From IMG/VR virus record IMGVR_UViG_2917413769_000007, positions 1-13,143 of that record: 13,143 nucleotides of DNA, one strand, 5' to 3'. The translations under genes and the position numbers were made by a program. Origin of the DNA: a virus. Lineage: Duplodnaviria > Heunggongvirae > Uroviricota > Caudoviricetes. The notes under the pieces are model-generated. The model was not told where the DNA came from. It made no database searches and saw nothing but the letters and a program-made list of their open reading frames with translations. This document shows, one piece after another, positions 1-13,143 of this stretch; the first letter of the stretch is position 1; each line of letters opens with the position of its first letter.

Positions 1-126
1 CGCCATAAATACCGGGAAAGGGATACCTGCATCGGTAATGGTTTCCAGCATCATGTCCTGGTTTTCTGGCACAAATACTTTGTTAAAGCCCGAGGCGAAG
101 AAGAACACTCCGAGAGCCAATCGCAT
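1..126 (-). CDS. Membrane protein, DoxX-like (first 42 codons only; gene runs off the window start); probable host flank
   Basis: Manual minus-strand translation from ATG at 126..124 gives MRLALGVFFFASGFNKVFVPENQDMMLETITDAGIPFPVFMA, a hydrophobic N-terminus typical of small inner-membrane proteins. No convincing SD upstream; in-frame stop at 187..189 bounds the ORF. Confidence 0.3.
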   Translation of the reverse strand, partial: MRLALGVFFFASGFNKVFVPENQDMMLETITDAGIPFPVFMA

Positions 127-429
127 TATGGCTAGTGGGATAAAGCTGCGGGTGCCCGGCGTCTGAAAAAAAAGCCTGCAAACAGGTCATAAATATTCTC
201 CCTGATTATGGGGTTGATTGTCACTTACAGGGAGGTATTTTCCTCCCCGGACGCAGGTAAAGATCATATAGCTTCAGATTCGCTGCGTTATTGAACCATA
301 CTGAACGCAGCATACCAGTGCAAGCAAGGTATAGAAAATTTGCTGTGAGCATCTCGAAGTGAAGTTAAGGAGTTGTTTATAGGATAGGCACCTCCGGCAG
401 CCATTATCGAAACATAGACTACCGGAGAG

Positions 430-560
430 AGGAAAATGATAATGTGTATATATTTGCGTATTAAAAATCAAATAAACTCAATATATAGCGATATAACATA
501 TTGATTTAAAGTACTTTGTTGTATTTTGGATAATCTTTATCGTACCGGATATCATATGGC
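430..560. other. AT-rich segment, candidate prophage/host junction
   Basis: About 130 bp of strongly AT-biased sequence (tatatat, ttaaaaatcaaataaa) between the Tfa remnant and the membrane-protein gene; no ORF of coding character. Confidence 0.3.
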
Positions 561-830
561 CTACGCCTCCGACAAATCAGGCCAGCTAACATGTTCAGGG
601 TCGGTTGTAACATCAACCGACTTAACCTTATTCTTATAATTCAGCCAGGCCGACAGTTTTGCTCTGCCGGTGTCGCTGATTTCCCCCAGCATTAACTCTG
701 TGCGCCAGTCGAGCATAGCTGCATCTGCATGGACCAGCAGTTGCTGGCGAACCCGGTTGGCGGCAGCAATCGATGCGGCATTTTTCGCTTCAGTATTCGT
801 GACCCATTTCTCAACCAGTTGTTTATCCAC
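561..830 (-). pseudogene. Tail fiber assembly protein (Tfa) C-terminal domain, probable remnant
   Basis: 89-aa ORF with GTG start; ending LSAWLNYKNKVKSVDVTTDPEHVSWPDLSEA matches from memory the lambda/P2 Tfa C-terminus ([28 protein letters not shown]). Sits right after replication genes with no tail genes in between. Confidence 0.45.
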
Positions 831-1071
831 CAGATCCCCCTTCGTGCTGCTGCCGCCAATAATTCAAACGTTGTCTGAAAAACTCCCGATAACTCTCCGG
901 CGTCGCGTCAATGTGCTGAATAACAGTCTGGCGAGTAACTTTACGCTCATAGAGCTGACGAACGAGCGCAGCGGCGCGCATGTCGTAATGCTCTTTGAGT
1001 TGGCACTCTTGTGGCCATTTTGCACGATTGAGCGGGAGACCGGGCGGGAGGTAATCCGATTGCCCGGCCAT
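823..1071 (-). CDS. Hypothetical protein (82 aa); possibly the upstream part of a frameshifted tfa-like gene
   Basis: ORF with ATG at 1071..1069; contains YLPPGLPLN resembling the YIPPHTGLPAN motif of Tfa N-regions; ends in GGSGG at a C5/G5 homopolymer (836..840) where the next ORF begins in another frame. Confidence 0.35.
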   Translation of the reverse strand: MAGQSDYLPPGLPLNRAKWPQECQLKEHYDMRAAALVRQLYERKVTRQTVIQHIDATPESYREFFRQRLNYWRQQHEGGSGG

Positions 1072-1074
1072 GCC

Positions 1075-1755
1075 TTAAGTCCTCATGTTTTTCTCTGAGT
1101 GAACGTAGAAACGGGGATCAACGCTTTTCAGCGTGAAGTGTGTAACGGGCATGTCGTCATGCCGCTCGATGCCAACAAAGTTAGACATGCAAAGCGCAAA
1201 GACGCGTTTCTGAAGTTGATCCAGGCTTATTTTGATGTCCGGGTAATATTTTTTGATCGCAGACATGATCCCCTGATATGAGAGCGTTTTACCCTTCATA
1301 ATCGCCACAAGGTGTTCCGCCGGCAGTTCGCTGGATTTTTGGGTTAATTGGGATTCAGTGGGATTCTCAATGGGTTTTATGGTATCCAACAGCAGACAAC
1401 AGCGGCTGGTAATACCTACCCTATAGCCCGTTTTTTTGTCGTAATTCTCTTTGCTTCCGGAAGTCCATACAGTTGCTGTTTCGCGAAGTTTTACTGTCTT
1501 CTCTCCACCTGAATAAATAACGGTTCCCGTATGCGTCTTACTGAAACACCGTGGGTTGGTTTCAACAGGTTTTGATTTTTTAGTTTTTTTGGCCGCGCGA
1601 GCAGTTAATCCCGGAACAGGTACTGGGCGCGGGCAAGGCACATAAACTGAACGGCTGCGAGCCCTAGCACCTGCGTTCATCCGCCAGATGATTACGTTTG
1701 TCCAGTCACAGGCATCGTCATCTGTCGCTACTTTAGGATAAATTAAATCGGTCAT
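1075..1755 (-). CDS. Hypothetical protein (226 aa from ATG 1755)
   Basis: Long ORF after the helicase; ATG at 1755..1753 is preceded on the coding strand by GAGGAAAGACCA (complement of 1757..1767). The ORF-track start at 1779 is a GTG without that RBS. No family recognised. Confidence 0.5.
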   Translation of the reverse strand: MTDLIYPKVATDDDACDWTNVIIWRMNAGARARSRSVYVPCPRPVPVPGLTARAAKKTKKSKPVETNPRCFSKTHTGTVIYSGGEKTVKLRETATVWTSGSKENYDKKTGYRVGITSRCCLLLDTIKPIENPTESQLTQKSSELPAEHLVAIMKGKTLSYQGIMSAIKKYYPDIKISLDQLQKRVFALCMSNFVGIERHDDMPVTHFTLKSVDPRFYVHSEKNMRT

Positions 1756-1793
1756 TGGTCTTTCCTCATTGTATTTCACGCTGGTCAGGCGTT

Positions 1794-3182
1794 TTAGAAT
1801 GCGTCGGTGTTGTACTTCTCTGCATACTTCCGTTGCTGTTTTCTGGGTTTTGCTGCCTCCAGTTGAATACGGGTCTTCTCTTTGCCGACGAGCTGATCGA
1901 TTGGCAGAAAGTGACCGTTTTTAAATTCCTGATAAACCACAGTACCAGCAGCCGCAAACCGGCATTTGCCGAGAATGACCTCAGCCACACCAGCCGCCGG
2001 GCTTTCAGGGTTATAAACTTCATCGCGGTACAGAAACAGGATGCTGTCAGCGTCCTGCTCGATGGAACCAGAATCACGCAGGTCTGACATTACCGGGCGA
2101 CGCTGCGCCGCCGGACGCGTATCAACCGCGCGGGAAAGCTGGCTGAGCGCAAAGGTCGGTGTATGTAGCCGCATAGCCATCGTTTTGAGATTGCGGGAAA
2201 TGTGCGCTACGGCAAGGTCGTTACGCTCTGCTTTCGGTTTCTTAATCAGGCCGAGATAGTCGACCATGATCATTGCCAGATGCGGATGGCGTCGCTTGTG
2301 TGTCTCCGCGATAGCGCGGATCTGTTCGACTGTGAGATCGGTCGCATCGACAATCCAGATGTCCCTGTCTGTAAGTTCTCCAATGGCTGCGGTCAATCTC
2401 GCCCAGTCCTCGTCGTACATGTCCTGAGGATTACGCAGGCGAGAAACGGACAAGTTTCCGGCACCAGCTAGCGAACGTTCAACAATCTGAGCCGCCGCCA
2501 TTTCCATGCTGAAAATCAACGCGCCGCCGCCCTTTGCCGTCACACCTTCAACGACGGTAAGCGCAAACTCTGTTTTACCCATGCCTGGGCGACCAGCCAC
2601 GACAATAAGATCCTGCGGGTTAATACTGCCTGTTGCGTTATCAAGATCCGCAATACCAGTCAGCAAATTGCGCGTGGATTCGTCACCGTCCATACGTTTC
2701 TGTACTGTGTCCATGTAAGCGGGCAAAAGCTCGTTGATGTGTACCGGCTGAACGTCGCCACTATCAGCAGTCATGTCCAGCAGCTGCGCCACTGCATTTT
2801 CGACCACTTGATCTCGTTGCTCCTGGTTGGCAGCTTTGCGGATGCCGTCAGCGCCATCCTGCAGAAGTTTCGCCAGCGCGCGGCTGCGCCAGGCCTTAAC
2901 CATCTTCCCGGCATACCCTTTCAGGTTCGGCACCGTTGCGGGGATACGGGATATTTCAGACAGGTCAGCCAGACTTGAACCGCCCAGCGCTTCGCTGATG
3001 AATAACATGTCGATCATGCCGTTAGTCAGCGCCTGTTTTTTTATCTCGCTGAATGTACGGCGATGAAAACCAATGCTGAATGATTCTTCTGGCGTGGAGG
3101 CGATCACGTCAAATGCGTCAGGAGAAGCACCGCCATTCAACAGGCCAGCCAGCACACACGCTTCCAGTTCCTGAGGATTCAT
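1794..3182 (-). CDS. Replicative DNA helicase, DnaB family (phage-encoded)
   Basis: 462-aa ORF; Walker A GRPGMGKT followed by other DnaB-like C-terminal-domain sequence (IVVAGRPGMGKTEFAL, SMEM, MIMVDYLGLI, SQLSR); start ATG overlaps the upstream gene stop as ATGA (3182..3179). Confidence 0.9.
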   Translation of the reverse strand: MNPQELEACVLAGLLNGGASPDAFDVIASTPEESFSIGFHRRTFSEIKKQALTNGMIDMLFISEALGGSSLADLSEISRIPATVPNLKGYAGKMVKAWRSRALAKLLQDGADGIRKAANQEQRDQVVENAVAQLLDMTADSGDVQPVHINELLPAYMDTVQKRMDGDESTRNLLTGIADLDNATGSINPQDLIVVAGRPGMGKTEFALTVVEGVTAKGGGALIFSMEMAAAQIVERSLAGAGNLSVSRLRNPQDMYDEDWARLTAAIGELTDRDIWIVDATDLTVEQIRAIAETHKRRHPHLAMIMVDYLGLIKKPKAERNDLAVAHISRNLKTMAMRLHTPTFALSQLSRAVDTRPAAQRRPVMSDLRDSGSIEQDADSILFLYRDEVYNPESPAAGVAEVILGKCRFAAAGTVVYQEFKNGHFLPIDQLVGKEKTRIQLEAAKPRKQQRKYAEKYNTDAF

Positions 3183-4432
3183 AATGCCTCTTCCCTGGTT
3201 TTACGCAGTGTTTCGGGTTTCATGAGATAATCAAAACTGGCACGCCAGCCGTCGTGATGCTCGCCACCGAAATAAAATTCAGGAGCGGTGTTGCGAAATT
3301 TCTCAAGGTATCCCAGAAACGCGCCTGTAGTTTTATTGATCATGTGGGCTGCGAGGCGTGTAATCATCTGGCGGCGATCGGCGTCCAGGGTTGCAGCAGG
3401 TAGCACATCAGCAAAAATTTCGTTGTAAGCATCGACTACCGCAACCGGATCAATACTGGCTTCGGTGGTGGCCCATGCCTCAGCGTCAGCCAGATAACCA
3501 TCGAAGCGGCATACTCGACAGATATTTGCCGGTTTAGGGAGGCTGTCACCCCGGCGGCGCCAGGTAGCCAGTACCCAACGAATAACTAACTGAACATCAT
3601 CCAGCGTATAGCCGTCTCGGGTAGTCGTAGGGGTCATAAGCGCCAGGAACGGCTTCATGTCACGGCAGCGAGTACCGGTTTGCACATTGTAAAAATCTAG
3701 TGCTTTTTTAGCATCTGCAAGGATTTGTTCGCGGGAAATATTAGCAACCGAGGATGTTTCTGGATGCGCACCAATCACAGTGATCCCGTCAAATTCGTAG
3801 CGTTCTGTAATTACGCCATCTCTGACCAGAATAAAGCCATCACTAAGCTGTTTTAATTTTGTTATGGATTTATCCCGCACGTTGATTCGATCAATTTCAA
3901 TACCGCATTGTTCACCATCGCTTCCAGTTACTAGTAAATCAACGCGGCCTCTGCGACCGTTACCACGATCAGCTACCGGGTATTCGCGCTGGCAGTCAAA
4001 GCCTGCACCAACAATCGCAGACTCAACAGCATCGTGAAGCTCACCTGCTTTTTCAAAATCAAATTTACCTTCGAGAAGGGAAATCAGTTGCTCACGCAAT
4101 ACATGTCCGCCAACTCTCCCAACGGGAGATTTAGAGGGATATATATTCTCTGTAGTAATCTCTGTATGAATATTTGCTGGTTTTCCACTTACTTGTCTGG
4201 TGGTTTTCCGCACTCCAGTATGTGTTTTTTCCGCATTCTTGTTTGCGGCTATAAGTACCTGATATAAAAACGTCATTATCAACCTTGTAGAAAAGTCGAG
4301 CAGGAACACCTTTTCGTTTTTCCAGCAGTACACCAATTGAGCGAAGTTTTTTACGCGCCCCTTCCTGCTCATAGCGAGAAAGGCCTGTTTCTTCTTCCCA
4401 TTCTTCTTGGGTTTTATATACCCACCCGTCAT
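3179..4432 (-). CDS. Replication initiator (O-like), downstream frame: central nuclease-fold-like segment plus conserved phage replication C-terminal domain
   Basis: C-terminal 170 aa (GYTLDDVQLVIRWVLATWRRRGD...EFYFGGEHHDGWRASFDYL) resemble the conserved C-terminal domain of phage replication initiators, by recollection. The first ~50 codons of the tracked ORF are out-of-frame translation of the N-terminal domain; likely continuation of 4131..4556 across a frameshift. Confidence 0.65.
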   Translation of the reverse strand: MTGGYIKPKKNGKKKQAFLAMSRKGRVKNFAQLVYCWKNEKVFLLDFSTRLIMTFLYQVLIAANKNAEKTHTGVRKTTRQVSGKPANIHTEITTENIYPSKSPVGRVGGHVLREQLISLLEGKFDFEKAGELHDAVESAIVGAGFDCQREYPVADRGNGRRGRVDLLVTGSDGEQCGIEIDRINVRDKSITKLKQLSDGFILVRDGVITERYEFDGITVIGAHPETSSVANISREQILADAKKALDFYNVQTGTRCRDMKPFLALMTPTTTRDGYTLDDVQLVIRWVLATWRRRGDSLPKPANICRVCRFDGYLADAEAWATTEASIDPVAVVDAYNEIFADVLPAATLDADRRQMITRLAAHMINKTTGAFLGYLEKFRNTAPEFYFGGEHHDGWRASFDYLMKPETLRKTREEAL

Positions 4433-4556
4433 CGTCGGATCGGTTAGTCCAGTAGGTCATTTGTGAAAGAAAAAGCGAGGCAGTAACACCAATATTCAGG
4501 CGAATAAAACTACGCTGGAAGGCGATCGGCCTGTCGAGTAGTGGGAGTATATTCAT
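4131..4556 (-). CDS. Replication initiator (O-like), N-terminal replisome-organizer/DNA-binding domain (upstream frame)
   Basis: Motif MTYWTNRSDDDGWVYKTQEEWEEETGLSRYEQEGARKKLRSIGVLLEKRKGVPARLFYKVD, typical of phage replisome-organizer N-domains by recollection; ATG at 4556..4554 sits 2 nt after the upstream gene's stop; sequence degrades after FYKVD. Confidence 0.65.
   Translation of the reverse strand: MNILPLLDRPIAFQRSFIRLNIGVTASLFLSQMTYWTNRSDDDGWVYKTQEEWEEETGLSRYEQEGARKKLRSIGVLLEKRKGVPARLFYKVDNDVFISGTYSRKQECGKNTYWSAENHQTSKWKTSKYSYRDYYREYISL
4147..4235. repeat. Candidate replication-origin iterons inside the O-like gene
   Basis: Direct repeats GGTTTTCCACT (4179..4189), GGTTTTCCGCAC (4202..4213), TTTTTCCGCAT (4226..4236) at about 23-bp spacing, plus TCTCTGTA twice (4147..4154, 4159..4166), next to an AT-rich stretch (4255..4280). 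Confidence 0.4.
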
Positions 4557-4558
4557 GA

Positions 4559-4783
4559 TCAAATCCCCAGAGTTTCGGCGATTTGACGACATGCCGCCTG
4601 ATATTCCTCAGATGACAATTCCATTTCACGGAGTTCTTCTTTCAGTTTTTCATACTGCGCCCAGATAGATAGCGCAGCTGCGCGACGGCCTTCGAAAATA
4701 TCTTCGATATCATCCAGGGTGGCTGGCACCCCGTTTAGTCGAAATCCGTTCCGCCATGTAATGCGGTCGATTGAAGTCAGCAT
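4559..4783 (-). CDS. Hypothetical small protein (74 aa) between the YdaT-like and O-like genes
   Basis: ATG at 4783..4781 preceded by GAGGAAAGACCAAT (complement of 4787..4797); product MLTSIDRITWRNGFRLNGVPATLDDIEDIF...; no family recognised. Confidence 0.6.
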   Translation of the reverse strand: MLTSIDRITWRNGFRLNGVPATLDDIEDIFEGRRAAALSIWAQYEKLKEELREMELSSEEYQAACRQIAETLGI

Positions 4784-4805
4784 ATTGGTCTTTCCTCGAT
4801 ACAAG

Positions 4806-5252
4806 TTAAACGCTGGTCAGGCGCTGTGTTTCCTGTATGGCTTGTAATGCCTGCGCTATACGCTGGGGTCGATCCCTTGCTTCAAGCAACAGAGCAATAA
4901 TCGCCGCGGCAAAATCACGAATCGCAATGCAAATTAACTGCTGAGTGGTCATTCCCAGCTGTGCATATCGTTCCGCAGGCAACGCAGCTTCCATCGCCAT
5001 GGCCAGCGCTTTCGTTTTGATTCTTGCCGCTTTCGTCTCACCACGTAGCCAGCGAAAAATCTGCTGCCGGTTGTTGTTGATAGCCCGCCAGTCAGCATTA
5101 CCTTTCGAATCCTCCATCGGGTGAAGTTTTACGTAGCTGGTATTGCCACCCATTCGAAACCACATGCGAGTGATCTCAATAGCAACATGTTCCTGGCCAC
5201 GCTCAGCAGCCCAGTTGAAGATTTCTCTTTTCAGTTCGTCGAGGTTTTCCAC
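4806..5252 (-). CDS. ydaT: YdaT-like protein (Rac-prophage YdaT family)
   Basis: 148-aa ORF with GTG start and AGGAG 10 nt upstream; segment WRAINNNRQQIFRWLRGETKAARIKTKAL matches my recollection of YdaT; located directly downstream of the Cro-like gene as in Rac. Confidence 0.7.
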   Translation of the reverse strand: MENLDELKREIFNWAAERGQEHVAIEITRMWFRMGGNTSYVKLHPMEDSKGNADWRAINNNRQQIFRWLRGETKAARIKTKALAMAMEAALPAERYAQLGMTTQQLICIAIRDFAAAIIALLLEARDRPQRIAQALQAIQETQRLTSV

Positions 5253-5275
5253 TTCGTCGCGTCTCCTGTCGCTGA

Positions 5276-5298
5276 AAACCTGATTAAGCGTAATCAGA
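5276..5298. repeat. 23-bp element AAACCTGATTAAGCGTAATCAGA with internal palindrome, copy 1
   Basis: Identical to 10629..10651. Contains CTGATTA-AGCG-TAATCAG. Lies between the Cro-like and YdaT-like genes; on the transcribed (minus) strand the hairpin is followed by GUUUUC. Confidence 0.5.
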
Positions 5299-5316
5299 TT
5301 TCAAATACGCTCTTTG

Positions 5317-5517
5317 TTAAGCTGCAGTTGTGTTGTTCGGTTCCAGATAAAATTCGGGGTCATATTTCAAAGCCCCATCAGTAACACGATCCAACCTTGC
5401 AGCTCGGCGCTCAGGTATCACATTTCCCCAGCGAGATACTGCTGGAAGTGAAACTCCTGCGGCTCGAGCCAGCTTTGTGGCGCTCCCAAAGAACGCTAAA
5501 GCATCGTTTTTAAACAT
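5317..5517 (-). CDS. dicC: Cro-like HTH regulator, DicC/YdaS family
   Basis: 66 aa, MFKNDALAFFGSATKLARAAGVSLPAVSRWGNVIPERRAARLDRVTDGALKYDP, matches DicC/YdaS pattern from memory; divergent from the repressor gene; SD GGAG 7 nt upstream of ATG. Confidence 0.8.
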   Translation of the reverse strand: MFKNDALAFFGSATKLARAAGVSLPAVSRWGNVIPERRAARLDRVTDGALKYDPEFYLEPNNTTAA

Positions 5518-5598
5518 TGCCGATCTCCATTTTGTTAACTTTAAGAAACAAAATTACGAGTTAAAGAAAATTAAGTCAAGTAAATTTATATTAACTAC
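5518..5598. promoter_or_regulatory. Divergent promoter/operator region of the immunity switch
   Basis: 81-bp AT-rich intergenic region between divergent repressor and cro-like genes; minus-strand -35 TTGACT (complement of 5574..5579); operator-like 18-mer GTTAACTTTAAGAAACAA at 5534..5551 with flanking inverted repeat TTTGTT/AACAAA. Confidence 0.5.
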
Positions 5599-6009
5599 AT
5601 GAACAAAATCAGCCCTGGCGAGCGCATTAAAAAGCGACGTAAAGAACTCAACCTAACTCAGCGTGAAGTCGCAAAACTCGCGCAGGTATCGCACGTCACA
5701 ATCTCTAAATGGGAAAACGATGACAACGAGCCTCAGGGCAGGAACTTGTTCCAGTTGAGTCAGGCCCTGCAATGTTCACCCACCTGGATTTTATACGGGG
5801 ACGAAGACAAACAGCCCGAGCCTCCAGCAGTATCTGAAGAAGATAAGATCACATTAGATGAGCTTGAAGAGCAGCTACTCGAGCTTTTCAGGGCACTACC
5901 CAGTTCAGAAAAAGAACGCCATTTAACTGAGCTTCGCGGAAAAGTGGACGATTTTAATCGTCTGTTTTACGAATTGCTCCAAGCAAGAAAAACCTCCAAG
6001 AAAAAATAA
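5599..6009 (+). CDS. dicA: HTH (XRE-family) repressor, DicA-like
   Basis: 136 aa; HTH segment LTQREVAKLAQVSHVTISKWEN; LQCSPTWILYGDEDKQP and LLELFRALPSSEKE match my recollection of E. coli DicA; no peptidase S24 domain. Confidence 0.9.
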   Translation: MNKISPGERIKKRRKELNLTQREVAKLAQVSHVTISKWENDDNEPQGRNLFQLSQALQCSPTWILYGDEDKQPEPPAVSEEDKITLDELEEQLLELFRALPSSEKERHLTELRGKVDDFNRLFYELLQARKTSKKK

Positions 6010-6045
6010 ATCCATTAAAATCAAATAAATGGATGAGTGTCGCCC

Positions 6046-6110
6046 TTTTATTTAACTTTTATAAACAAATTTATGTTGACTGATAATTTAACCTTTATTA
6101 AATTAACTTC
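6046..6110 (+). promoter_or_regulatory. Candidate early-left promoter with second operator copy
   Basis: TTTAACTTTTATAAACAA (6051..6068) matches the 5534..5551 operator-like 18-mer at 15/18 positions; followed by TTGACT (6076..6081), a 17-nt spacer and TAAATT (6099..6104). Confidence 0.4.
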
Positions 6111-6217
6111 CATCAACGACGCACTAACCACGCGGCAGTTGTTCAGAAAAACGTTCCGCCGCCGGGCGTAAAGCGGATGAGGGAATCGGCGCTAACAACA
6201 AAGCAATGGGGTGAGTG

Positions 6218-6535
6218 ATGGAATTCAGCAAGCTGCCACACGAAGTGCAGGTAATTGCCGCCAAATGCCTGGCAGACGAAATCAATACAGTTTCAGGTTT
6301 TGCAGGCAATGAGGTTAACCGCGGTCCCGCTAAAGAGCAGGCCAAACAGGTTCGTGACGCATTCATTGCTCTTTTTTCAGAGCGCGAGATGGAAGGTGAG
6401 AAAAAAGCGGCAGCAGAGAGAATTGCTGCCACCATCGCAGGCATGCAGCAACTGATTGGTAGCGATGAGGTGCTAAAAACCCAAGTTAAACATCTGATTT
6501 CAGCGACTGAAGATTTGCTTGATAAGTGCCTGTAA
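6218..6535 (+). CDS. Hypothetical protein (105 aa), first gene after the repressor
   Basis: Coding-like composition (MEFSKLPHEVQVIAAKCLADEIN...); GGGGTGAG upstream of ATG; the opposite-strand ORF 6124..6576 is low complexity and judged non-coding. Confidence 0.55.
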   Translation: MEFSKLPHEVQVIAAKCLADEINTVSGFAGNEVNRGPAKEQAKQVRDAFIALFSEREMEGEKKAAAERIAATIAGMQQLIGSDEVLKTQVKHLISATEDLLDKCL

Positions 6536-6736
6536 TTGGTAAGTGACCGATACACCATCTCCGTTAGATGGTCCATCTACATCAGGAAATCGAAGGGTGA
6601 CATTGTTTTTAAGGGCTTTTAGTTGTTCTGAAGTTAACAGTTTAAGGGCTTCATCAAGCATTACGTTTGTTGCTTCCAGAGTGGCTTCTGAGACTTTTGG
6701 CTTAATTTCCTCAAGCATTTTAGAAAGTTGACTCAT
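6500..6736 (-). CDS. Hypothetical protein (78 aa), convergent with 6218..6535
   Basis: Internal ATG at 6736..6734 of the tracked ORF is preceded by AAGG 7 nt upstream; product MSQLSKMLEEIKPKVSEATLEATNVMLDEALKLL...; candidate -10 TATACT (complement of 6769..6774). Confidence 0.4.
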   Translation of the reverse strand: MSQLSKMLEEIKPKVSEATLEATNVMLDEALKLLTSEQLKALKNNVTLRFPDVDGPSNGDGVSVTYQLQALIKQIFSR

Positions 6737-6885
6737 GTTTTTACCTTGCTGGTTATGTGAGAACGCCCAGTATACCACCGAGCCTGAAGTGGCTAAAAGA
6801 CAGGCAACGAATTCGCGGGTCGCCGCCAGTACGATGACATGCGGGAAAGACCGCAATGAATCCAAAATTGCTGTGTGTAGTCTTT

Positions 6886-6912
6886 GCCCAGCCACCACGG
6901 TGGGCACTTTTT
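6886..6912 (+). terminator. Candidate intrinsic terminator (plus strand)
   Basis: GC-rich hairpin GCCCA-N10-TGGGC (or CCAC-CACG-GTGG) followed by ACTTTTTTTC. Confidence 0.45.
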
Positions 6913-7111
6913 TTCACACAGTTACGATTTTACCGTTGTGACTGAGTCTCCAGACGGAGAGGCCAAACCCACAATGTGACACCAGGGAAAGACCGAAGGA
7001 AGTACAACGCCTGACCAGCGTAAACCGAGCATGACCAGCTCTGGCACCGGGGAAGACCGGAAGAGGAAAGACCTGATGGCCTCACCAGCCTGACTGCCGG
7101 GAAAGACCGGC

Positions 7112-7148
7112 ACCCTTTAGATGGCAAAAGGCCCGCACAAGGCGGGCC
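7112..7148 (+). promoter_or_regulatory. nut-like element: boxA-like CCCTTTAG plus boxB-like hairpin
   Basis: CCCTTTA (7113..7119) resembles boxA CGCTCTTTA; 11 nt later a perfect 7-bp GC stem GGCCCGC/GCGGGCC with 5-nt loop ACAAG (7130..7148), not followed by a U tract. Confidence 0.25.
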
Positions 7149-7276
7149 AGTTACCCCGGGCGGCGACCAAACCACCCGGATTGTTCCGCAGGGGACCAAC
7201 CCTGCGGAGAGGAAAGACCAATGCAGGACAGAGCCAACACTGATCGGCTCTGAGTATATATCACTAAGGAGCCGCT

Positions 7277-7600
7277 ATGGAAGCGCTAACCATCCCCGTA
7301 AAGCTGTACATCCATTACAACGCCAACACTTTCTCTCAGGAAAAAATCATTGTCGCCACCTGTGACATGTCACGTAGTTTTCCAGATCAATATGTCTTGC
7401 TGGAAACGCGCAATATATCCATCGATGTAAACCAACCAGAGCCATTCGACATTATTGCTCTGCAGGTCGACCAGTTGCGTGACCAGAAAGAGAAAATCGC
7501 AACTTTGGCGCAAAGTCAGATAGCCCAGGTTGACGACAAAATACAGCAACTGCTCTGTATTGATCACTCACCTGTTCAGGAAAGCGACATCCCATTTTGA
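7277..7600 (+). CDS. Hypothetical protein (107 aa) immediately upstream of the annealing-protein gene
   Basis: Strong SD TAAGGAG 6 nt upstream of ATG; coding-like acidic protein; no family recognised. Confidence 0.65.
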   Translation: MEALTIPVKLYIHYNANTFSQEKIIVATCDMSRSFPDQYVLLETRNISIDVNQPEPFDIIALQVDQLRDQKEKIATLAQSQIAQVDDKIQQLLCIDHSPVQESDIPF

Positions 7601-7695
7601 TCAACCGGCGCCAGACCAGCGCCAGTAACCAAAGAGGAAAGACCAAGTGACAATTTATAACTGTCTGTTCGAGCCGAAGAAATCTGCTATCAAGG

Positions 7696-9918
7696 ATGGT
7701 GCTGTTGCATTGGCAATCAGCATCGAAGCGCCAAATAAAAAAAGTCGCTGAAAGTATCATCATCGGCAAACTCTGGGAGCATTATCCTGCAAATGGCGAC
7801 AACTATTTTAAACCTAAAATCTGGGAAGATTCAGAGGGCCAGCCTCGTCCGGAAGTCGGAAAATTTGATGAGCAATTTGCTCAGGCGAACACATTAGACG
7901 GGGAAAAGTGGATCGCCAACGATTCAGACACCAGTACTTTAAATTTGCCAGCCAACGACGAGATAATCGATCTGACGAAGCTGCCAGCTCGTGAACGCTT
8001 CATTGCCATTCTTATGTTCAGTGATTCCCCCATTGACGGTGTACTGTACTCTCAGGTGCTGGATTATCTTGATAATCTGGAAAATAGCCACGAGCCGTTT
8101 GATGATGACGATCGGCTGAATTCTAATATTCTTCATGCCCTGGAAAATAACGAACCCGTTCGTCACATGCATGTTGAGGGGGTAAACAATCTGATTCAGG
8201 CCATCTTCGCTAAATTTGAAGGCCAGGCACCGGGTAAGGCAGCAATTTCACAGTTCATTAAACGCTGGATGGAAAATCCTCGTAAGCGTGAAGAAATGCG
8301 GCCGGAAAATACCGCATTGAATAATGATGGTGTCAACAATGACAGTAACAAAGTAGCACCACAGCGCGGATATAAGCATTCTTATGCCACACTGGATCAG
8401 GAAATTGCCCTCGCCCTTCTCCCGATTAATTTCACAGAAACAGTATCAGTTCGTGCGCTACGATCTGCTGAACACATCATTGAAGAAGACCGAGAAGATT
8501 TCAAACGCTGGTCAGCGGCACTACGTACGACAGAGCAGATCCTGAAGTATGACCGCCCCAGTGTTTTTGGCGTTATTCAGAATGCACCTGCTAAAGATAC
8601 ATACCATTTCCCTGAGTCACTGCGGCACCATATTGATTCCTGGCTGGCTGAAAATGGTCAGTTCGAGTGTGCTGGTACTGATGCGGAGAGAACCAGCAAA
8701 CTGCTTGCGGCAGAGCGCGGCGAGTACGTCGAAGGTATCAGCGACCCTAACGATCCTAAATGGGTTAAAACAGATTCCCAACCTCAGGTATCAAACCTCG
8801 GCAATGGAATGTTCTCTGTTGATAATCTTCTGCCTGAAACCGCCTCAAAGGAAGGTGAAAAACAGGAAGTGACCGAACAAGGAACTGTTACAGAAGACCA
8901 GGCAACACAGGCCCGAGAAAAGTTGAACAGCATGGGTTACGGCGTTTATGCAACGAACCATGACGAAACTGACCAGCAGGAAGAAAAGCTGAGCGATAAA
9001 GTAAAAACTCTCGTTCAGGATGCGGATCAACTTGTCGAGCGCGTTAAACGTGAAGAGCAGCTCCCGCAGGCATCTGAACTGGTTCAGAGCATCAACGAAA
9101 TGCAGTCTACTGAACGCGATAACCTGGAATTGTGGAAAGAGGTGTTCAAAACAGATGAGCGTTTTACTACTGCGTTCTCTGTGAATGGCGGCGGAACCTC
9201 AATCAATGGCACCTACATGACCATGATCGCTACCCGCGAATTTGGTCCGAAAGGTATCGGCTGGGGTGTGGATATTCTTGAAGAACGCTTTGACGATGGC
9301 GCGCCAATTACTCGCGCAGTCAAAGGGACTGACGGTAACAATACATGGGAGTTTATTCCCGACGGTGTAGGCGGCATCCTGACAGAGAAACACCACGTTA
9401 TCAAAATCAGACTTTGGTACATCCGGAATGGTGCGCGCGGTGAAGAGATTTCATTCGGGTGTACCCCGTATATTTACGGCAGCAAATACGGCCCTATTTG
9501 CGATGGTGAAGCGACAAAAAAATCACTGACTGACGCAACCAAAAAAGCGCTGTCTGCACTTGGTTTCTGCGCTGATATTTTCATGGGCCTGTACGATAAC
9601 CCGGAGTATCGCCAGAAAAATAAAGCAGAATTCGCGCTCAAAAACGCCAGCGAAAACGCCGAGGATGCCGCCCGCGTACGTCAGGAACTGGACGACAAAC
9701 TGACCCGAGTCGCTAACACCATTGCATCTGCTGTATCAGAGCACGAGATCAACAAGGTCTATTCTTCGATTGCTCGCGAAGCGGAGGTGCATCGCAAGGA
9801 TGCAGAGGCGAAAGGTGACACACAGCATGCCCGTTACTTAGGTGGGCGTCTGCGTCGCCTGACAACTATCAAAGATGGACGTATCGCCGAACTGAAAAAA
9901 GTACAGGAGAAAGCATAA
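7696..9918 (+). CDS. Large protein with C-terminal Erf/Rad52-like single-strand annealing domain and ~470-aa unknown N-terminal region
   Basis: 740-codon ORF; residues ~480-640 (EATKKSLTDATKKALSALGFCADIFMGLYD) match the Erf (GATSSYARKYCLNGLFGIDD) and Rad52 helix motifs from memory; tracked ATG 7696 has no usable SD; see frameshift finding. Confidence 0.8.
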   Translation: MVLLHWQSASKRQIKKVAESIIIGKLWEHYPANGDNYFKPKIWEDSEGQPRPEVGKFDEQFAQANTLDGEKWIANDSDTSTLNLPANDEIIDLTKLPARERFIAILMFSDSPIDGVLYSQVLDYLDNLENSHEPFDDDDRLNSNILHALENNEPVRHMHVEGVNNLIQAIFAKFEGQAPGKAAISQFIKRWMENPRKREEMRPENTALNNDGVNNDSNKVAPQRGYKHSYATLDQEIALALLPINFTETVSVRALRSAEHIIEEDREDFKRWSAALRTTEQILKYDRPSVFGVIQNAPAKDTYHFPESLRHHIDSWLAENGQFECAGTDAERTSKLLAAERGEYVEGISDPNDPKWVKTDSQPQVSNLGNGMFSVDNLLPETASKEGEKQEVTEQGTVTEDQATQAREKLNSMGYGVYATNHDETDQQEEKLSDKVKTLVQDADQLVERVKREEQLPQASELVQSINEMQSTERDNLELWKEVFKTDERFTTAFSVNGGGTSINGTYMTMIATREFGPKGIGWGVDILEERFDDGAPITRAVKGTDGNNTWEFIPDGVGGILTEKHHVIKIRLWYIRNGARGEEISFGCTPYIYGSKYGPICDGEATKKSLTDATKKALSALGFCADIFMGLYDNPEYRQKNKAEFALKNASENAEDAARVRQELDDKLTRVANTIASAVSEHEINKVYSSIAREAEVHRKDAEAKGDTQHARYLGGRLRRLTTIKDGRIAELKKVQEKA

Positions 9919-10472
9919 TGACTACTGCAATCGCGTTAGCTGCCGACTATACCAACCTGCTGCAATTGCTGGAAAGCTCAGATGAACTGACTCCGGAAAT
10001 GATCGCCGATACTCTGGAAGGCATTGAAGGAGAACTGGCGGATAAGCTGGATGCCATCATGGTATTAGCCCGCAATAATCTCGGACATGCCAAAACCTGT
10101 GATGAGGAAATGAAGCGCCTGGCGGAGCGCAAAAAGTCTTTCGAAAATAAAGATAAAACGCTCAGGAAATATATTCTGTCGTGCCTTATGGCCGCGAATC
10201 TGGATAAGCTCAAGACACCTAAAAACACTTTCACTGCCCGTAAAGGCAGCATCAGCGTTGTGATCGATAACGAAAAGCTATTGCCTGATGATCTGGTAAC
10301 TGTTCAGACGATTATCGCCCCGGACAAAAAAGCCATCAAAGAGGCAATCGAGGCTGCGGAAGCTGCCGCAGCGCAAATCACCGCTGATGGCGGTGAAGTA
10401 CCTGCCGAACTGTTAAACCCGGTACCGGGCGCCCATCTTGAGATCGGCGAACGTTCATTGCAGGTGCGCTGA
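9918..10472 (+). CDS. Siphovirus Gp157-like protein (companion of Erf/Sak-type recombinases)
   Basis: 184 aa; start ATG overlaps the upstream stop (TAATG); KTPKNTFTARKGSISVVIDNEKLLPDDL matches my recollection of Gp157 proteins; a Mu-Gam-like assignment is not excluded. Confidence 0.6.
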   Translation: MTTAIALAADYTNLLQLLESSDELTPEMIADTLEGIEGELADKLDAIMVLARNNLGHAKTCDEEMKRLAERKKSFENKDKTLRKYILSCLMAANLDKLKTPKNTFTARKGSISVVIDNEKLLPDDLVTVQTIIAPDKKAIKEAIEAAEAAAAQITADGGEVPAELLNPVPGAHLEIGERSLQVR

Positions 10473-10473
10473 T

Positions 10474-10656
10474 ATGCTGAAACTATCTCTCAAACGTGGC
10501 GATGCGGTACATGTTGTTCTCCCTGACGGTAGTAACGGAATTATTGAAGCCCGCAGCCGTTGTGAACTGGGTATGCGTCTGCCGAAAAACGTGAAGGTTA
10601 CGCGTGAGAAAGGCGCATTCCTCCCTGCAAACCTGATTAAGCGTAATCAGAAATAA
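10474..10656 (+). CDS. Hypothetical small protein (60 aa)
   Basis: ATG at 10474, 2 nt after the upstream stop; product MLKLSLKRGDAVHVVLPDGSNGIIEARSRCELGMRLPKNVKVTREKGAFLPANLIKRNQK; 3' end is encoded by repeat copy 2. Confidence 0.45.
   Translation: MLKLSLKRGDAVHVVLPDGSNGIIEARSRCELGMRLPKNVKVTREKGAFLPANLIKRNQK
10629..10651. repeat. 23-bp element AAACCTGATTAAGCGTAATCAGA, copy 2
   Basis: Identical to 5276..5298, same orientation on the plus strand; overlaps the stop region of 10474..10656. Confidence 0.5.
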
Positions 10657-10705
10657 AACCCCGCTACCGCTAGCATTGCGGCCTCACTATTCACAGGAGG
10701 TCGCA

Positions 10706-10903
10706 ATGCTGCGATGGCAACCCGGAGCTACTCTGCTCACAGATTTCGATATAAAGATTGGCCGGTTATCGGCAAGCGTACGAAAGAAGACACTGACCCA
10801 GTCCGACATCGAACGCGCCTGCAGTGATGCTGACGACGCTGTGTACCGGATGATGAGGAAAGACCAACATGACCAGAGAAAACGATCTGCTAACAGACGC
10901 TGA
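10706..10903 (+). CDS. Hypothetical small protein (65 aa)
   Basis: Internal ATG at 10706 preceded by AGGAGG with 5-nt spacing; product MLRWQPGATLLTDFDIKIGRLSASVRKKTLTQSDIERACSD...; 3' end overlaps the xis-like start by 35 nt. Confidence 0.5.
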   Translation: MLRWQPGATLLTDFDIKIGRLSASVRKKTLTQSDIERACSDADDAVYRMMRKDQHDQRKRSANRR

Positions 10904-11093
10904 ACTGATTGAGTTTACCGGCTATCAGAAACCATCCAAACAACGGGAAATACTGGACCGTGGCGGCGTGTCGTACATTCCCGACCGGGAAGGACGCCCG
11001 ATGGTTACCTGGACACATATCAACGCTGTACTGAACGGACAGATCACCGTGCAGACCAGTACAGAAGAGAAACCCGATTTTGGAGCTATTTAA
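10869..11093 (+). CDS. Excisionase-like protein (DUF4224-type)
   Basis: 74 aa directly upstream of and abutting the integrase gene; LLTDAELIEFTGYQKPSKQREILDRGGVSYIPDREGRPMV fits the int-adjacent small-protein pattern from memory; preceded by GAGGAAAGACCAAC. Confidence 0.65.
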   Translation: MTRENDLLTDAELIEFTGYQKPSKQREILDRGGVSYIPDREGRPMVTWTHINAVLNGQITVQTSTEEKPDFGAI

Positions 11094-12113
11094 ATGGGGC
11101 GCAGAAGAAAGGATCCGGGTGATAACAGGTTACCCCCGCGCGTATCAAAAACCAGAACTCGTTACTACTACAAACCCACCTCGCGGGAGACCGTGACGCT
11201 TGGACCAATCACCTTCACTATGTCGGCGTTATGGAAACGGTACGAAGAAGAGCGACGCAATTATTCAGATGTGATGACGTTCGAAAAGCTCTGGAAGATG
11301 TTTCTTAAAAGCGCCTACTACACCGAGCTTGCAATACGAACCCAGCGGGATTACCTGCAACATCAGAAAAAACTACTTGTCGTATTCGGTAAAGTTAAAG
11401 CTGATTTAATCAAACCGGAAGACGTTCGTCAGTTTATGGATCGTCGTGGCCTACAAAGTAAAAATCAGGCTAACCAGGAAATGAGCAGTATGTCGCGTGT
11501 TTACCGCTGGGGATACGAACGCGGTTACGTTAAGGGAAACCCGTGCGCCGGCGTCAGTAAATTCTCTCTCAAGGCCCGCGAGCAATACATCACTGACGAA
11601 GACTACCTGGCGATTTATAAACATGCAGATCACGTCGTCAGGGCAGCAATGGAAATATCGTACCTGTGCGCAGCCCGGCAAGCTGATGTACTCGCTCTGC
11701 GCTGGATGCAGATATCTGACAAGGGGATTTTTATCCAGCAGGGTAAGACAGGGAAAAAGCAAATTAAGGTGTGGACGCCCCGCCTTCGGCAGGCGCTGGA
11801 AACGGCACAGACAGAATGCCCGAGGCTCTCACCTGATTCACTGGTTATCTATAACAACGATCGTGCTCAGTTCATCCGCAAGACGTTCAATAATCGCTGG
11901 CTAAAGGCCGTACGTGCCGCACAAAGCGAACTGGGCCGGCAACTGGATTACACGTTTCACGATATAAAGGCAAAAGCCATTTCAGATTTTGAGGGGAGTA
12001 GCAGGGATAAGCAGATATTTAGCGGTCACAAAACAGAAAGTCAGGTGCTTATCTACGACAGAAAGGTGCAAATCAGTCCGACGCTGGATCGTCCTTTGAT
12101 AAATGGCCAGTAG
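11094..12113 (+). CDS. int: Tyrosine recombinase / phage integrase
   Basis: 339 aa; alignable by eye to lambda Int catalytic region: AARQADVLALRW (Arg-I), QQGKTGKK (Lys), TFHDIKAKAISDF (His box), FSGHKTESQVLIYDRK (His-II and Tyr). Confidence 0.9.
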   Translation: MGRRRKDPGDNRLPPRVSKTRTRYYYKPTSRETVTLGPITFTMSALWKRYEEERRNYSDVMTFEKLWKMFLKSAYYTELAIRTQRDYLQHQKKLLVVFGKVKADLIKPEDVRQFMDRRGLQSKNQANQEMSSMSRVYRWGYERGYVKGNPCAGVSKFSLKAREQYITDEDYLAIYKHADHVVRAAMEISYLCAARQADVLALRWMQISDKGIFIQQGKTGKKQIKVWTPRLRQALETAQTECPRLSPDSLVIYNNDRAQFIRKTFNNRWLKAVRAAQSELGRQLDYTFHDIKAKAISDFEGSSRDKQIFSGHKTESQVLIYDRKVQISPTLDRPLINGQ

Positions 12114-12114
12114 T

Positions 12115-12144
12115 TTGACAAATCCGCATCAACGGGGCTATATT
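12115..12144 (+). promoter_or_regulatory. Candidate sigma70 promoter immediately after int, reading toward antA
   Basis: TTGACA (12115..12120), 18-nt spacer, TATATT (12139..12144). Confidence 0.5.
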
Positions 12145-12174
12145 CCGCTTCATGGTGCTGAACACACCTTGCAA

Positions 12175-12212
12175 AGCGGAAACCGCACCTGTCAGTCATG
12201 CGGATTTTTTAT
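12175..12212 (+). terminator. Candidate attenuator/terminator in the antA leader
   Basis: GCGG-AAA-CCGC hairpin (12175..12185) shares its CCGC with an alternative CCGCA-N11-TGCGG stem (12182..12202) followed by ATTTTTTAT; stems are short. Confidence 0.3.
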
Positions 12213-12357
12213 GTCCATTTTTCAGATATGGTCGGGTAGCGCGTATACCGAAAAACAGCCGAAAGGTTAAGGATACGGGCCGACTTTGCACGGTGTTCAA
12301 GTACCTGACCGCCCTGCTGAACACAGGGCTATCTGAACAAATGCAAAGGACATAAAA

Positions 12358-13143
12358 ATGACCAATCAACTCATCCCCGTTTTCAACGGCACGATATCCA
12401 ACGACCCCCACCTGCTCTGCAATGCCCGCGATCTGCACGCCTTCCTCGAAGTAGGCAAGCGCTTCGCTACTTGGATTACTGACCGACTAAACGAGTATCA
12501 ATTCGTTGAAAATCAGGACTACATAGCTATTTCCCAAAAACGGGAAATAGGTCATGGGCGTGGCCGCAAGGACTTCTACATCACCCTGGACACCGCCAAG
12601 GAACTGGCGATGGTTGAGCGCAACGAAAAAGGCCGCCAGATCCGCCGATACTTCATTGAGTGCGAGAAGCAACTCAGTCAGAACAAAGAATCAATTGTCC
12701 TGACCACTCCGATGCATCGAACGCCACTACGTGACGCCGTTCACCTTCTTGTCGGTATGCGCTGCATGGCATTTCAGGAAGCCTATCAGCTTATCCACCA
12801 GCGCTTTGGCGTCGGTAGTATTGAACAACTCACCCGCGCACAAGTGATGGATGCCATAGAGTACATTCATTGTCTGTTAGCAGACGGGGCAACAGGGAAA
12901 CTCCCCTCCGGCGAAAGCAGAATATTAATCACCCTTCGAAATGGAGAAATAATCAAGACAAGGGCCATTGGAGCTGATGAGCATGTCGCAACGCTGGAGG
13001 CTTTTATCGAACTGGCGAGAAGTGCGCATTACATTGTCATCCACAAGGATGGTGCAGCGCCATTGATGAAGGCATTAACAGGAGGGAGATCTGAGGAAGG
13101 CAAAAGACACAAACTGAATAATTATTCAGTTTGCGATTTCTGA
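12358..13143 (+). CDS. antA: Phage antirepressor, AntA-type N-terminal domain with C-terminal extension
   Basis: 261 aa; ARDLHAFLEVGKRFATWITDRLNEYQFVENQDYIAI and DFYITLDTAKELAMVERNEKGRQIRRYFIECEKQL match the AntA domain from memory; SD AAGGA 9 nt upstream; stop at the last three bases of the window. Confidence 0.8.
   Translation: MTNQLIPVFNGTISNDPHLLCNARDLHAFLEVGKRFATWITDRLNEYQFVENQDYIAISQKREIGHGRGRKDFYITLDTAKELAMVERNEKGRQIRRYFIECEKQLSQNKESIVLTTPMHRTPLRDAVHLLVGMRCMAFQEAYQLIHQRFGVGSIEQLTRAQVMDAIEYIHCLLADGATGKLPSGESRILITLRNGEIIKTRAIGADEHVATLEAFIELARSAHYIVIHKDGAAPLMKALTGGRSEEGKRHKLNNYSVCDF

What the first reader, a model, noticed from the sequence alone, without database searches (positions are those of the whole stretch)
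7634..7751. Strong-RBS start for the annealing-protein gene is out of frame by one base at an A7 run
The tracked ATG at 7696 has no usable SD (AAGG abuts the ATG). A GTG at 7647 sits behind GAGGAAAGACCAA (7634..7646), the same module used by other genes here, but its frame stops at 7749..7751 after 34 codons. The two frames meet at a run of seven A (7737..7743); one A fewer would join VTIYNCLFEPKKSAIKDGAVALAISIEAPNKK to VAESIIIGKLWEHY... as one ORF. This could be a homopolymer sequencing error, an inactivating mutation in a decaying prophage, or slippage-dependent expression.
Basis: seen in the sequence. Interest (0 to 1): 0.5.

Follow-up and report, generated by a model that had tools for sequence, protein, structure and literature searches.

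The report
Ion Torrent homopolymer error splits recombinase gene
The one-base frame break in this prophage recombination gene is real in the deposited sequence, but it is almost certainly an extra A miscalled by Ion Torrent sequencing, because a second assembly of the same strain and every relative have one A fewer and an intact 756-residue gene.

Summary
GTG 7647 sits behind GAGGAAAGACCAA. That frame stops at 7749-7751. It meets the 740-codon ATG-7696 frame at an A7 run (7737-7743). Removing one A gives a 756-aa ORF.

The window is the first 13,143 bases of contig PDIL01000007.1 (Escherichia sp. E1130, cryptic clade II), an Ion Torrent single-end assembly (PMC6639607). A second assembly of the same strain (VATL01000016.1) differs from the whole window by no substitutions and exactly three one-base indels. 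Each is an extra A in an A run of the window, and each breaks a gene:
- the DoxX gene at 166-173;
- the replication-initiator gene at 4262-4266;
- this gene at 7737-7743.

The repaired protein is identical to the protein annotated in that assembly (WP_138211501.1). All 18 other loci examined are in frame. They carry A6, an in-frame A7 (next codon ATC), or a run interrupted by a synonymous G. The ATG is not conserved.

Best explanation: a homopolymer sequencing artefact (about 0.9). A real mutation in the sequenced culture is about 0.06. Programmed slippage is about 0.02 or less.

The parts
7634..7646 (+). Ribosome-binding module GAGGAAAGACC plus AA spacer. This is the real translation-initiation region of the recombinase gene.
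   Evidence: The 11-mer occurs 6 times in the window against 0.23 expected. The same module precedes the start codon in all 18 related loci.
7647..7751 (+). GTG start and the first 32 real codons of the gene (VTIYNCLFEPKKSAIKDGAVALAISIEAPNKK). Two out-of-frame codons and TGA follow, created by the extra A.
   Evidence: Translation. The peptide is conserved in E. coli strain 44, phage BUCT708, and Citrobacter, Raoultella, Enterobacter and Salmonella homologs.
7737..7743 (+). A7 homopolymer. One A is surplus, and the true length is most likely A6.
   Evidence: A6 is found in VATL01000016.1 (same strain), in the Logan assembly of SRR8835199 and in 10 other loci. In 3 loci the run is interrupted by a synonymous G, and one carries an in-frame A7. 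Only the window and its own contig PDIL01000007.1 have an out-of-frame A7.
7696..9918 (+). The 740-codon ORF. From 7744 on it is the true reading frame of the gene. 7696-7743 is out-of-frame sequence, and the ATG is fortuitous (GAT GGT read out of frame).
   Evidence: The ATG is absent in divergent homologs.
7647..9918 (+). The whole recombinase gene as it most likely exists in the strain: 756 aa after removal of one A. It has an N-terminal YdfE_N domain, a RecE-N-like middle and a C-terminal Rad52-fold annealing domain with a helical tail.
   Evidence: The repaired product is identical to WP_138211501.1/TLI70138.1 of Escherichia sp. E1130. phrog_2489 covers 1-756 against 1-728/728. PF27430 YdfE_N is recorded on homologs. 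NF007259 matches residues 203-338.
9115..9915 (+). C-terminal 267 residues: a Rad52-type single-strand annealing domain followed by long helices.
   Evidence: AF2 model with a 56-sequence alignment, pLDDT 96.3. The top 9 PDB matches are all the human RAD52 N-terminal domain, E 4e-7 to 3e-6. 17 of 56 stand-alone relatives hit Pfam Rad52_Rad22. Viral matches are named Rad52-like, SSAP or Erf.
4262..4266 (.). Second surplus A (A5 here, A4 elsewhere). It splits the minus-strand replication-initiator gene into ORFs 3179-4432 and 4131-4592.
   Evidence: The A4 version gives a 458-aa protein that matches phrog_1347 end to end. A4 is also found in the Logan assemblies of SRR8835199 and SRR6148301.
166..173 (.). 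Third surplus A (A8 here, A7 in the other assembly). It truncates the minus-strand chromosomal DoxX-family gene after 35 codons.
   Evidence: DoxX Pfam hit on the intact version.

Best explanation
The frame break is an artefact of the deposited assembly, not a property of the organism.

The window is the start of contig PDIL01000007.1 of Escherichia sp. E1130, which was sequenced with single-end Ion Torrent reads. That chemistry infers homopolymer length from signal size and often miscounts runs. Here the consensus carries A7 where the DNA most likely has A6.

In the strain, the gene most likely starts at GTG 7647, eight bases after GAGGA, and runs uninterrupted to 9918. It encodes a 756-aa prophage recombination protein with three parts: a YdfE_N N-terminus, a RecE-N-like middle and a Rad52-fold annealing domain.

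Shown: the sequence anatomy, the identity of the window with PDIL01, the platform, the A6 state in the second assembly and in all relatives, and the two further extra-A calls.

Inferred: that the discrepancy arose in sequencing or assembly rather than in the culture.
For: 1. The window is 100% identical to PDIL01000007.1 at the same coordinates.
2. PDIL00000000 is an Ion Torrent assembly: single-end reads of 35-400 b, 50x coverage, MIRA plus SPAdes (PMC6639607).
3. Ion Torrent is prone to homopolymer indels that cause frameshifts. In one study adenine runs were the most affected, and the mean length of affected runs was 5.5 (PMC12046094).
4. VATL01000016.1, a second assembly labelled with the same strain name, differs from all 13,143 bases by 0 substitutions and 3 indels. 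Each is one extra A in an A run of the window.
5. All three break ORFs that are intact in the other assembly. One is a chromosomal DoxX gene outside the prophage. Another is a replication-initiator gene whose intact form matches phrog_1347 end to end.
6. The repaired protein is residue-for-residue identical to WP_138211501.1 of E1130. The 740-aa and 34-aa products occur nowhere in a collection of 15 billion proteins.
7. The Logan assembly of run SRR8835199 has A6 and A4. The Logan assembly of run SRR6148301 has A4 at 4266, plus its own C-run and G-run deletions. So the A5 of the deposit is not reproduced even from what is probably its own read set.
8. The 18 other loci are all in frame. More than 2,000 homologous proteins were found, and the 120 best listed are 756-758 aa and cover the full query.
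Against: - No raw reads could be inspected.
- For the 7737 site there is effectively one independent replicate, because VATL01 and the Logan contig of SRR8835199 may derive from the same reads.
- The Logan contigs of SRR6148301 that I could fetch stop at 7380 and resume at 9542, so they do not cover the A run.
- The link between SRR6148301 or SRR8835199 and the two deposits is inferred from sequence identity. The tools do not state it.
- All three discrepancies are over-calls of A on the same strand. That is unusual but rests on only three sites.
Confidence: 0.9

Rival explanations
1. A genuine +1 A insertion arose by replication slippage in the clone or culture used for the Ion Torrent library. 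It would inactivate, or N-terminally truncate, the recombinase of a decaying prophage.
For: - The element is a roughly 12-kb prophage remnant between a DoxX gene and the hya operon, so relaxed selection is plausible.
- N-terminally shortened 549-aa alleles exist in several Citrobacter strains.
- A6-to-A7 slippage is a common class of mutation (established knowledge).
Against: - It would need three independent +1 events in 13 kb with no substitutions between two samples of one strain, one of them in a chromosomal DoxX gene.
- The A5 at 4266 is contradicted by the Logan assembly of what is probably the same Ion Torrent run.
- The rest of the gene is identical to the intact allele and shows no further decay.
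Confidence: 0.06
2. Slippage-dependent expression. The A7 run would be a programmed site where a +1 ribosomal shift, or loss of one A by RNA polymerase slippage, restores the full-length protein at low level. Alternatively, tract-length variation would make the gene a phase-variable switch.
For: - A run of seven A allows tRNA-Lys to re-pair in the +1 frame, and it allows some transcriptional slippage (established knowledge).
- The two frames meet exactly at the run.
Against: - No homolog has the out-of-frame arrangement. Eleven loci have A6 in frame. L006 has A7 in frame because the next codon is ATC. Three loci break the run with a synonymous G, as AAGAAA or AAGAAG.
- A dnaX-type -1 shift would land in the wrong frame. 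The ATG frame is +1 of the GTG frame, read from the coordinates.
- No SD-like element lies just upstream of the run.
- The 87 nt downstream fold no better than shuffles, z = -0.02.
- No tract-length polymorphism was seen among related prophages.
Confidence: 0.02
3. The annotated-looking ATG at 7696 is the true start. The 34-codon GTG ORF would be a separate upstream leader peptide.
For: - ATG 7696 is the first start of the long ORF.
- AAGG lies just before it.
Against: - AAGG abuts the ATG with no spacer.
- The ATG is absent in divergent homologs.
- The GTG-frame peptide is conserved as the N-terminus of the protein in all homologs, and profile phrog_2489 starts at its residue 1.
Confidence: 0.01

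Closest known systems
Ion Torrent (semiconductor) homopolymer-length errors that create false frameshifts or pseudogenes in draft bacterial assemblies
   Same: - Single-base indels confined to homopolymers of 4-8 bases.
- Adenine runs are affected.
- Conserved ORFs are split.
- The errors are not reproduced in an independent sequencing of the same isolate.
All of this matches the description in PMC12046094 and the platform stated in PMC6639607.
   Different: Nothing differs materially. All three errors here happen to be over-calls of A on one strand, but with three sites that is not significant.
Programmed frameshifting at A-rich slippery sites (dnaX A AAA AAG -1; prfB +1) and transcriptional slippage at long A/T runs in IS elements and some phage genes
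   Same: A run of A at the point where two overlapping frames meet.
   Different: - The out-of-frame arrangement is not conserved in any homolog.
- The run is not conserved as a run.
- The required shift is +1, with no stimulatory SD or hungry-codon context.
- No downstream structure was found.
Phage Rad52-type single-strand annealing proteins (Sak of lactococcal phage ul36; human RAD52 N-terminal domain). This concerns the identity of the gene product.
   Same: - The C-terminal domain has the Rad52 fold.
- Stand-alone relatives of 240-290 aa pass Pfam Rad52_Rad22.
- It sits in the early-left recombination region, next to a Gp157/Gam-like gene.
   Different: The domain is fused behind about 480 residues of YdfE_N and RecE-N-like sequence, giving a 756-aa protein. 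The window protein itself does not reach any threshold in the local Pfam copy.
RecE / exodeoxyribonuclease VIII of the Rac prophage
   Same: Residues 203-338 resemble RecE residues 234-366 (NF007259; phrog_607). A 72-nt stretch matches Gifsy-1/2 recE-like genes.
   Different: There is no match to the C-terminal nuclease domain. The score is 81 bits against a cut-off of 1269. The PHROG label 'exonuclease' therefore looks inherited from the shared non-catalytic region.

Membership tests
Homopolymer sequencing/assembly artefact | The sequence comes from a platform known for homopolymer-length errors. | tested here: met
   The window equals PDIL01000007.1. PDIL00000000 was sequenced on Ion Torrent (PMC6639607).
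Homopolymer sequencing/assembly artefact | An independent assembly of the same strain differs only by homopolymer indels, and the discrepant allele is the odd one out among relatives. | tested here: met
   0 substitutions and 3 extra-A indels over 13,143 b against VATL01000016.1. All 18 other loci are in frame.
Homopolymer sequencing/assembly artefact | Other such indels nearby break conserved genes, which points to a systematic error rather than a single event. | tested here: met
   The DoxX gene and the replication-initiator gene are also broken by an extra A. Logan contigs of SRR6148301 carry further C-run and G-run deletions.
Homopolymer sequencing/assembly artefact | Raw reads show ambiguous or shorter run length at the site. 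| not testable with these tools
   There is no read access. The Logan contigs of SRR6148301 that were fetched do not cover 7380-9542.
Programmed ribosomal frameshift / transcriptional slippage site | The two-frame arrangement is conserved in homologs. | tested here: not met
   Every homolog has a single ORF through the site.
Programmed ribosomal frameshift / transcriptional slippage site | The slippery run is conserved. | tested here: not met
   The run is interrupted as AAGAAA or AAGAAG in L002, L003 and L007.
Programmed ribosomal frameshift / transcriptional slippage site | A stimulatory element is present (downstream structure or upstream SD-like sequence). | tested here: not met
   The downstream 87 nt give z = -0.02. 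No GGAGG-like sequence lies within 15 nt upstream of the run.
Phase-variable homopolymer (contingency) locus | Tract length varies between closely related strains or assemblies, with ON and OFF alleles both common. | tested here: not met
   11 related loci have A6 and none is out of frame. The 740-aa and 34-aa OFF products are absent from the 15-billion-protein collection.
Rad52-type SSAP (the gene product) | Rad52 N-terminal domain fold. | tested here: met
   Model pLDDT 96.3. The top 9 PDB hits are RAD52, probability 1.00, E 4e-7 to 3e-6, target TM-score 0.49-0.61.
Rad52-type SSAP (the gene product) | Passes the Pfam Rad52_Rad22 gathering score. | tested here: inconclusive
   The window protein gives no hit. 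Relatives P0251 and P0300 pass with 22.1 and 23.9 bits against 20.3. 17 of 56 relatives hit at E <= 0.01.
Rad52-type SSAP (the gene product) | Ring oligomer that anneals complementary ssDNA. | not testable with these tools
   This needs biochemistry.
RecE / exonuclease VIII | C-terminal PD-(D/E)XK nuclease domain and a full-length match. | tested here: not met
   NF007259 scores 81 bits against a cut-off of 1269. Only profile positions 234-366 of 877 match.

The most novel reading that the evidence does not exclude
The A6/A7 difference is real heterogeneity in strain E1130. The run would act as a slipped-strand ON/OFF switch for a prophage Rad52-type recombinase. The OFF allele would be partly rescued by +1 ribosomal slippage, or by RNA polymerase slippage, on the seven As.
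Probability: 0.03. Interest if true: 0.35.

Novelty: not a real feature. Interest (0 to 1): 0.07.

Why it matters
As biology it matters little, because the gene is most likely intact.

It does matter as a data-quality flag. This 13-kb stretch of GCA_004745435.1 carries three false frameshifts, about one per 4 kb. Any pseudogene, 'decaying prophage' or frameshift signal taken from this assembly needs checking against GCA_005781065.1 or the reads before it is interpreted. The same probably applies to the 15 sister Ion Torrent assemblies of cryptic clade II.

The repaired gene is a useful annotation point. A widespread family in Salmonella and Citrobacter prophages is labelled 'hypothetical protein' or 'exonuclease'. 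It is in fact a fusion of a RecE-N-like region with a Rad52-fold annealing domain.

Tried and rejected
- Exact-sequence look-ups of the 740-aa ORF, two alternative starts and the 34-aa ORF: none on record.
- Scan of IMG/VR for the A7-containing 39-mer: no match.
- Search of complete E. coli genomes with the DoxX end of the window, to compare its T run: no match.
- Attempts to find a paper or the sequencing platform for the second assembly VATL01 or for SRR8835199: nothing.
- Attempt to fetch the Logan contig of SRR6148301 that covers the A run through a guessed partial product: not on record.
- The genome-contig scan returned only 5 distant loci and not the source genome.
- Sequence searches of the PDB with the protein and with a 56-sequence profile: nothing meaningful.
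- The single-sequence AF2 model was too poor to use, pLDDT 53.9.
- The local Pfam copy has no hit for the full protein. The YdfE_N assignment rests on precomputed hits for homologs.
- The ATG 7696 start, dnaX-type -1 frameshifting and phase variation were considered and rejected, as set out under the rival explanations.

Full report
**1. The observation**

- GAGGAAAGACCAA occupies 7634-7646 and GTG is at 7647.
- That frame reads VTIYNCLFEPKKSAIKDGAVALAISIEAPNKKSR and stops at TGA 7749-7751.
- ATG 7696 is directly abutted by AAGG and opens a 740-codon ORF ending at 9918.
- A run of seven A lies at 7737-7743.
- Deleting one A produces a single 756-codon ORF that joins ...APNKK to VAESIIIGKLWEHY....
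- The ATG frame is +1 relative to the GTG frame.
- GAGGAAAGACC occurs six times in the window against 0.23 expected, always 1-3 nt before a start codon.

**2. Where homologs start**

An E. coli strain 44 prophage (78.6% DNA identity) has one annotated 757-aa CDS. It begins at the equivalent of 7647, behind the same module, and it has AAC AAA AAA GTG where the window has AAT AAA AAA A GTC. The record of Stenotrophomonas phage BUCT708 shows the same arrangement.

The 120 best listed are 756-758 aa, come mostly from Salmonella and Citrobacter, and cover 100% of the query. PHROG family 2489 aligns end to end, residues 1-756 against profile positions 1-728 of 728.

I fetched 18 related loci besides the window's own contig.
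- All carry the module and a start codon, ATG or GTG, at the 7647 position.
- All read MTIY... through the run in frame.
- Eleven have A6.
- One, Enterobacter sichuanensis, has A7 in frame, because its next codon is ATC.
- Three break the run with a synonymous G, as AAGAAA or AAGAAG.
- The ATG 7696 equivalent is ATT, ACT, ACA or ACG in the divergent homologs. In the window it is simply GAT GGT read out of frame.

So the true start is the GTG, and the window has one A too many.

**3. Where the window comes from**

The repaired protein, with Met for the initiator, is residue-for-residue identical to TLI70138.1/WP_138211501.1 of Escherichia sp. E1130. The 740-aa and 34-aa products are absent from a collection of 15 billion proteins.

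The neighbouring Gp157-family protein and the integrase occur in two E1130 assemblies. Fetching both showed the following.
- The window is 100% identical to PDIL01000007.1 (GCA_004745435.1) at the same coordinates. The gene has no called product there.
- VATL01000016.1 (GCA_005781065.1) carries the intact 756-aa gene.

Over all 13,143 bases the two assemblies differ by no substitutions and exactly three one-base gaps. Each is an extra A in an A run of the window:
- 166-173 (A8 against A7);
- 4262-4266 (A5 against A4);
- 7737-7743 (A7 against A6).

All three break genes.
- The first truncates a chromosomal DoxX-family gene after 35 codons.
- The second splits the replication-initiator gene into 417- and 153-codon ORFs. 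Its intact 458-aa form matches phrog_1347 end to end.
- The third is the finding itself.

**4. The sequencing platform**

The genome announcement for PDIL00000000 states that E1130 was sequenced with single-end Ion Torrent reads of 35-400 b at 50x and assembled with MIRA and SPAdes (PMC6639607).

A platform comparison documents that Ion Torrent data are prone to homopolymer indels that produce frameshifts. It also reports that the same errors do not recur in independent sequencing of one isolate, that adenine runs were the most affected, and that the mean affected run length was 5.5 (PMC12046094).

Logan assemblies built directly from public runs agree.
- The contig from SRR8835199 has A4 and A6.
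- The contig from SRR6148301 has A4 at 4266. By accession number and error pattern this is probably the Ion Torrent run, but that link is inferred. It also has its own deletions, in a C run at 6128 and a G run at 10427.
- I could not obtain a SRR6148301 contig covering 7380-9542.

**5. Verdict on mechanism**

The best explanation is a homopolymer over-call carried into the deposited consensus (confidence about 0.9).

A real +1 mutation in the sequenced culture is possible. It would need three such events in 13 kb with no substitutions, including one in a chromosomal gene. One of the three is also contradicted by an assembly of what is probably the same read set (about 0.06).

Programmed or phase-variable slippage is not supported (about 0.02 or less).
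- No homolog has the split arrangement.
- The run is not conserved.
- A -1 shift would reach the wrong frame.
- No upstream SD-like element is present.
- The downstream RNA folds no better than shuffles, z = -0.02.

**6. What the gene is**

Precomputed Pfam hits on homologs give YdfE_N (PF27430) at the N-terminus. Residues 203-338 resemble RecE/exonuclease VIII residues 234-366, but with 81 bits against a cut-off of 1269 and no nuclease domain.

The last 267 residues occur as stand-alone proteins of 240-290 aa in many clusters (1,160 representatives at E <= 1e-10). Seventeen of 56 such relatives hit Pfam Rad52_Rad22, and two are above the gathering score.

An AlphaFold model built on that alignment has pLDDT 96.3. 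Its nine best PDB matches are all the human RAD52 N-terminal domain, with E 4e-7 to 3e-6. Viral matches include proteins named Rad52-like recombinase, SSAP and Erf.

The product is therefore a Rad52-fold annealing protein fused behind a RecE-N-like region. It is followed by a Gp157-family gene, which PHROG labels as Mu Gam-like end protection. The PHROG label 'exonuclease' is probably inherited from the non-catalytic RecE-like region.

**7. Novelty and score**

The finding as posed, a frame break at an A run, is most likely not a real feature of the organism. Interest is low. Its practical value is as a warning about this assembly and probably its sister assemblies, and as a corrected gene model: 7647-9918 minus one A, 756 aa.

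Noticed in passing
window 4262-4266 (minus-strand ORFs 3179-4432 and 4131-4592): A second false frameshift. The window has A5 where the other E1130 assembly and two Logan assemblies have A4. It splits a 458-aa replication-initiator gene, whose intact form matches phrog_1347 end to end.
   Followed up: yes
window 166-173 (minus-strand ORF 83-190): A third false frameshift. The window has A8 against A7 in VATL01. It truncates the chromosomal DoxX-family gene after 35 codons. No E. coli complete genome matched this end of the window.
   Followed up: partly
window 1779-1791(-), 4811-4823(-), 7008-7020(+), 7609-7621(+); with GAGGAAAGACC at 1757(-), 4787(-), 7063, 7209, 7634, 10855: A bipartite intergenic module. 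CGCCTGACCAGCG (4 copies against 0.03 expected) is followed 11-42 nt later by GAGGAAAGACC (6 copies against 0.23 expected) and then a start codon. It looks like a conserved gene-junction or translation-initiation cassette of this prophage family.
   Followed up: partly
window 7063-7090 and 7209-7252; L008 7608-7909: Two copies of the RBS module are followed only by 5- and 10-codon ORFs. In a related Citrobacter-type contig the same module precedes an extra 95-aa gene inserted just upstream of the recombinase gene. This suggests cassette gain and loss at these junctions.
   Followed up: no
window 7647-9918 (protein); 9115-9915 (C-terminal domain): The family is annotated 'hypothetical protein' or 'exonuclease' (phrog_2489, phrog_7838). 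It is in fact a fusion of a YdfE_N/RecE-N-like region with a Rad52-fold annealing domain. No nuclease domain was detected.
   Followed up: yes
proteins P0122, P0126, P0128, P0130 (cluster of P0001): Several Citrobacter strains carry 549-aa alleles that begin at Met208 (MENPRKREEM). They lack the YdfE_N region. The cause (deletion, frameshift or annotation) was not examined.
   Followed up: no
L022 (window 10427) and L026 (window 6128): Logan contigs of run SRR6148301 carry their own one-base deletions in a G3 run and a C2 run, relative to both deposited assemblies. This fits a read set rich in homopolymer errors.
   Followed up: partly
window 1-13143; L009/L021: The window is the first 13,143 bases of contig PDIL01000007.1. 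The prophage is a remnant of about 12 kb lying between a DoxX gene and the hyaABCDEF-cyd-like operon. It holds replication, immunity, recombination and integrase genes plus a Caudo_TAP fragment. An AntA-domain ORF (12358-13143) follows the integrase.
   Followed up: no
L002 (OM816834.1, Stenotrophomonas phage vB_SmeS_BUCT708) 1-8340: A phage record assigned to Stenotrophomonas carries an early-left region (Cro/CI, YdaT-like gene, recombinase, Gp157, integrase) that is collinear with, and about 70% identical to, this enterobacterial prophage. That is an unexpected host assignment.
   Followed up: no
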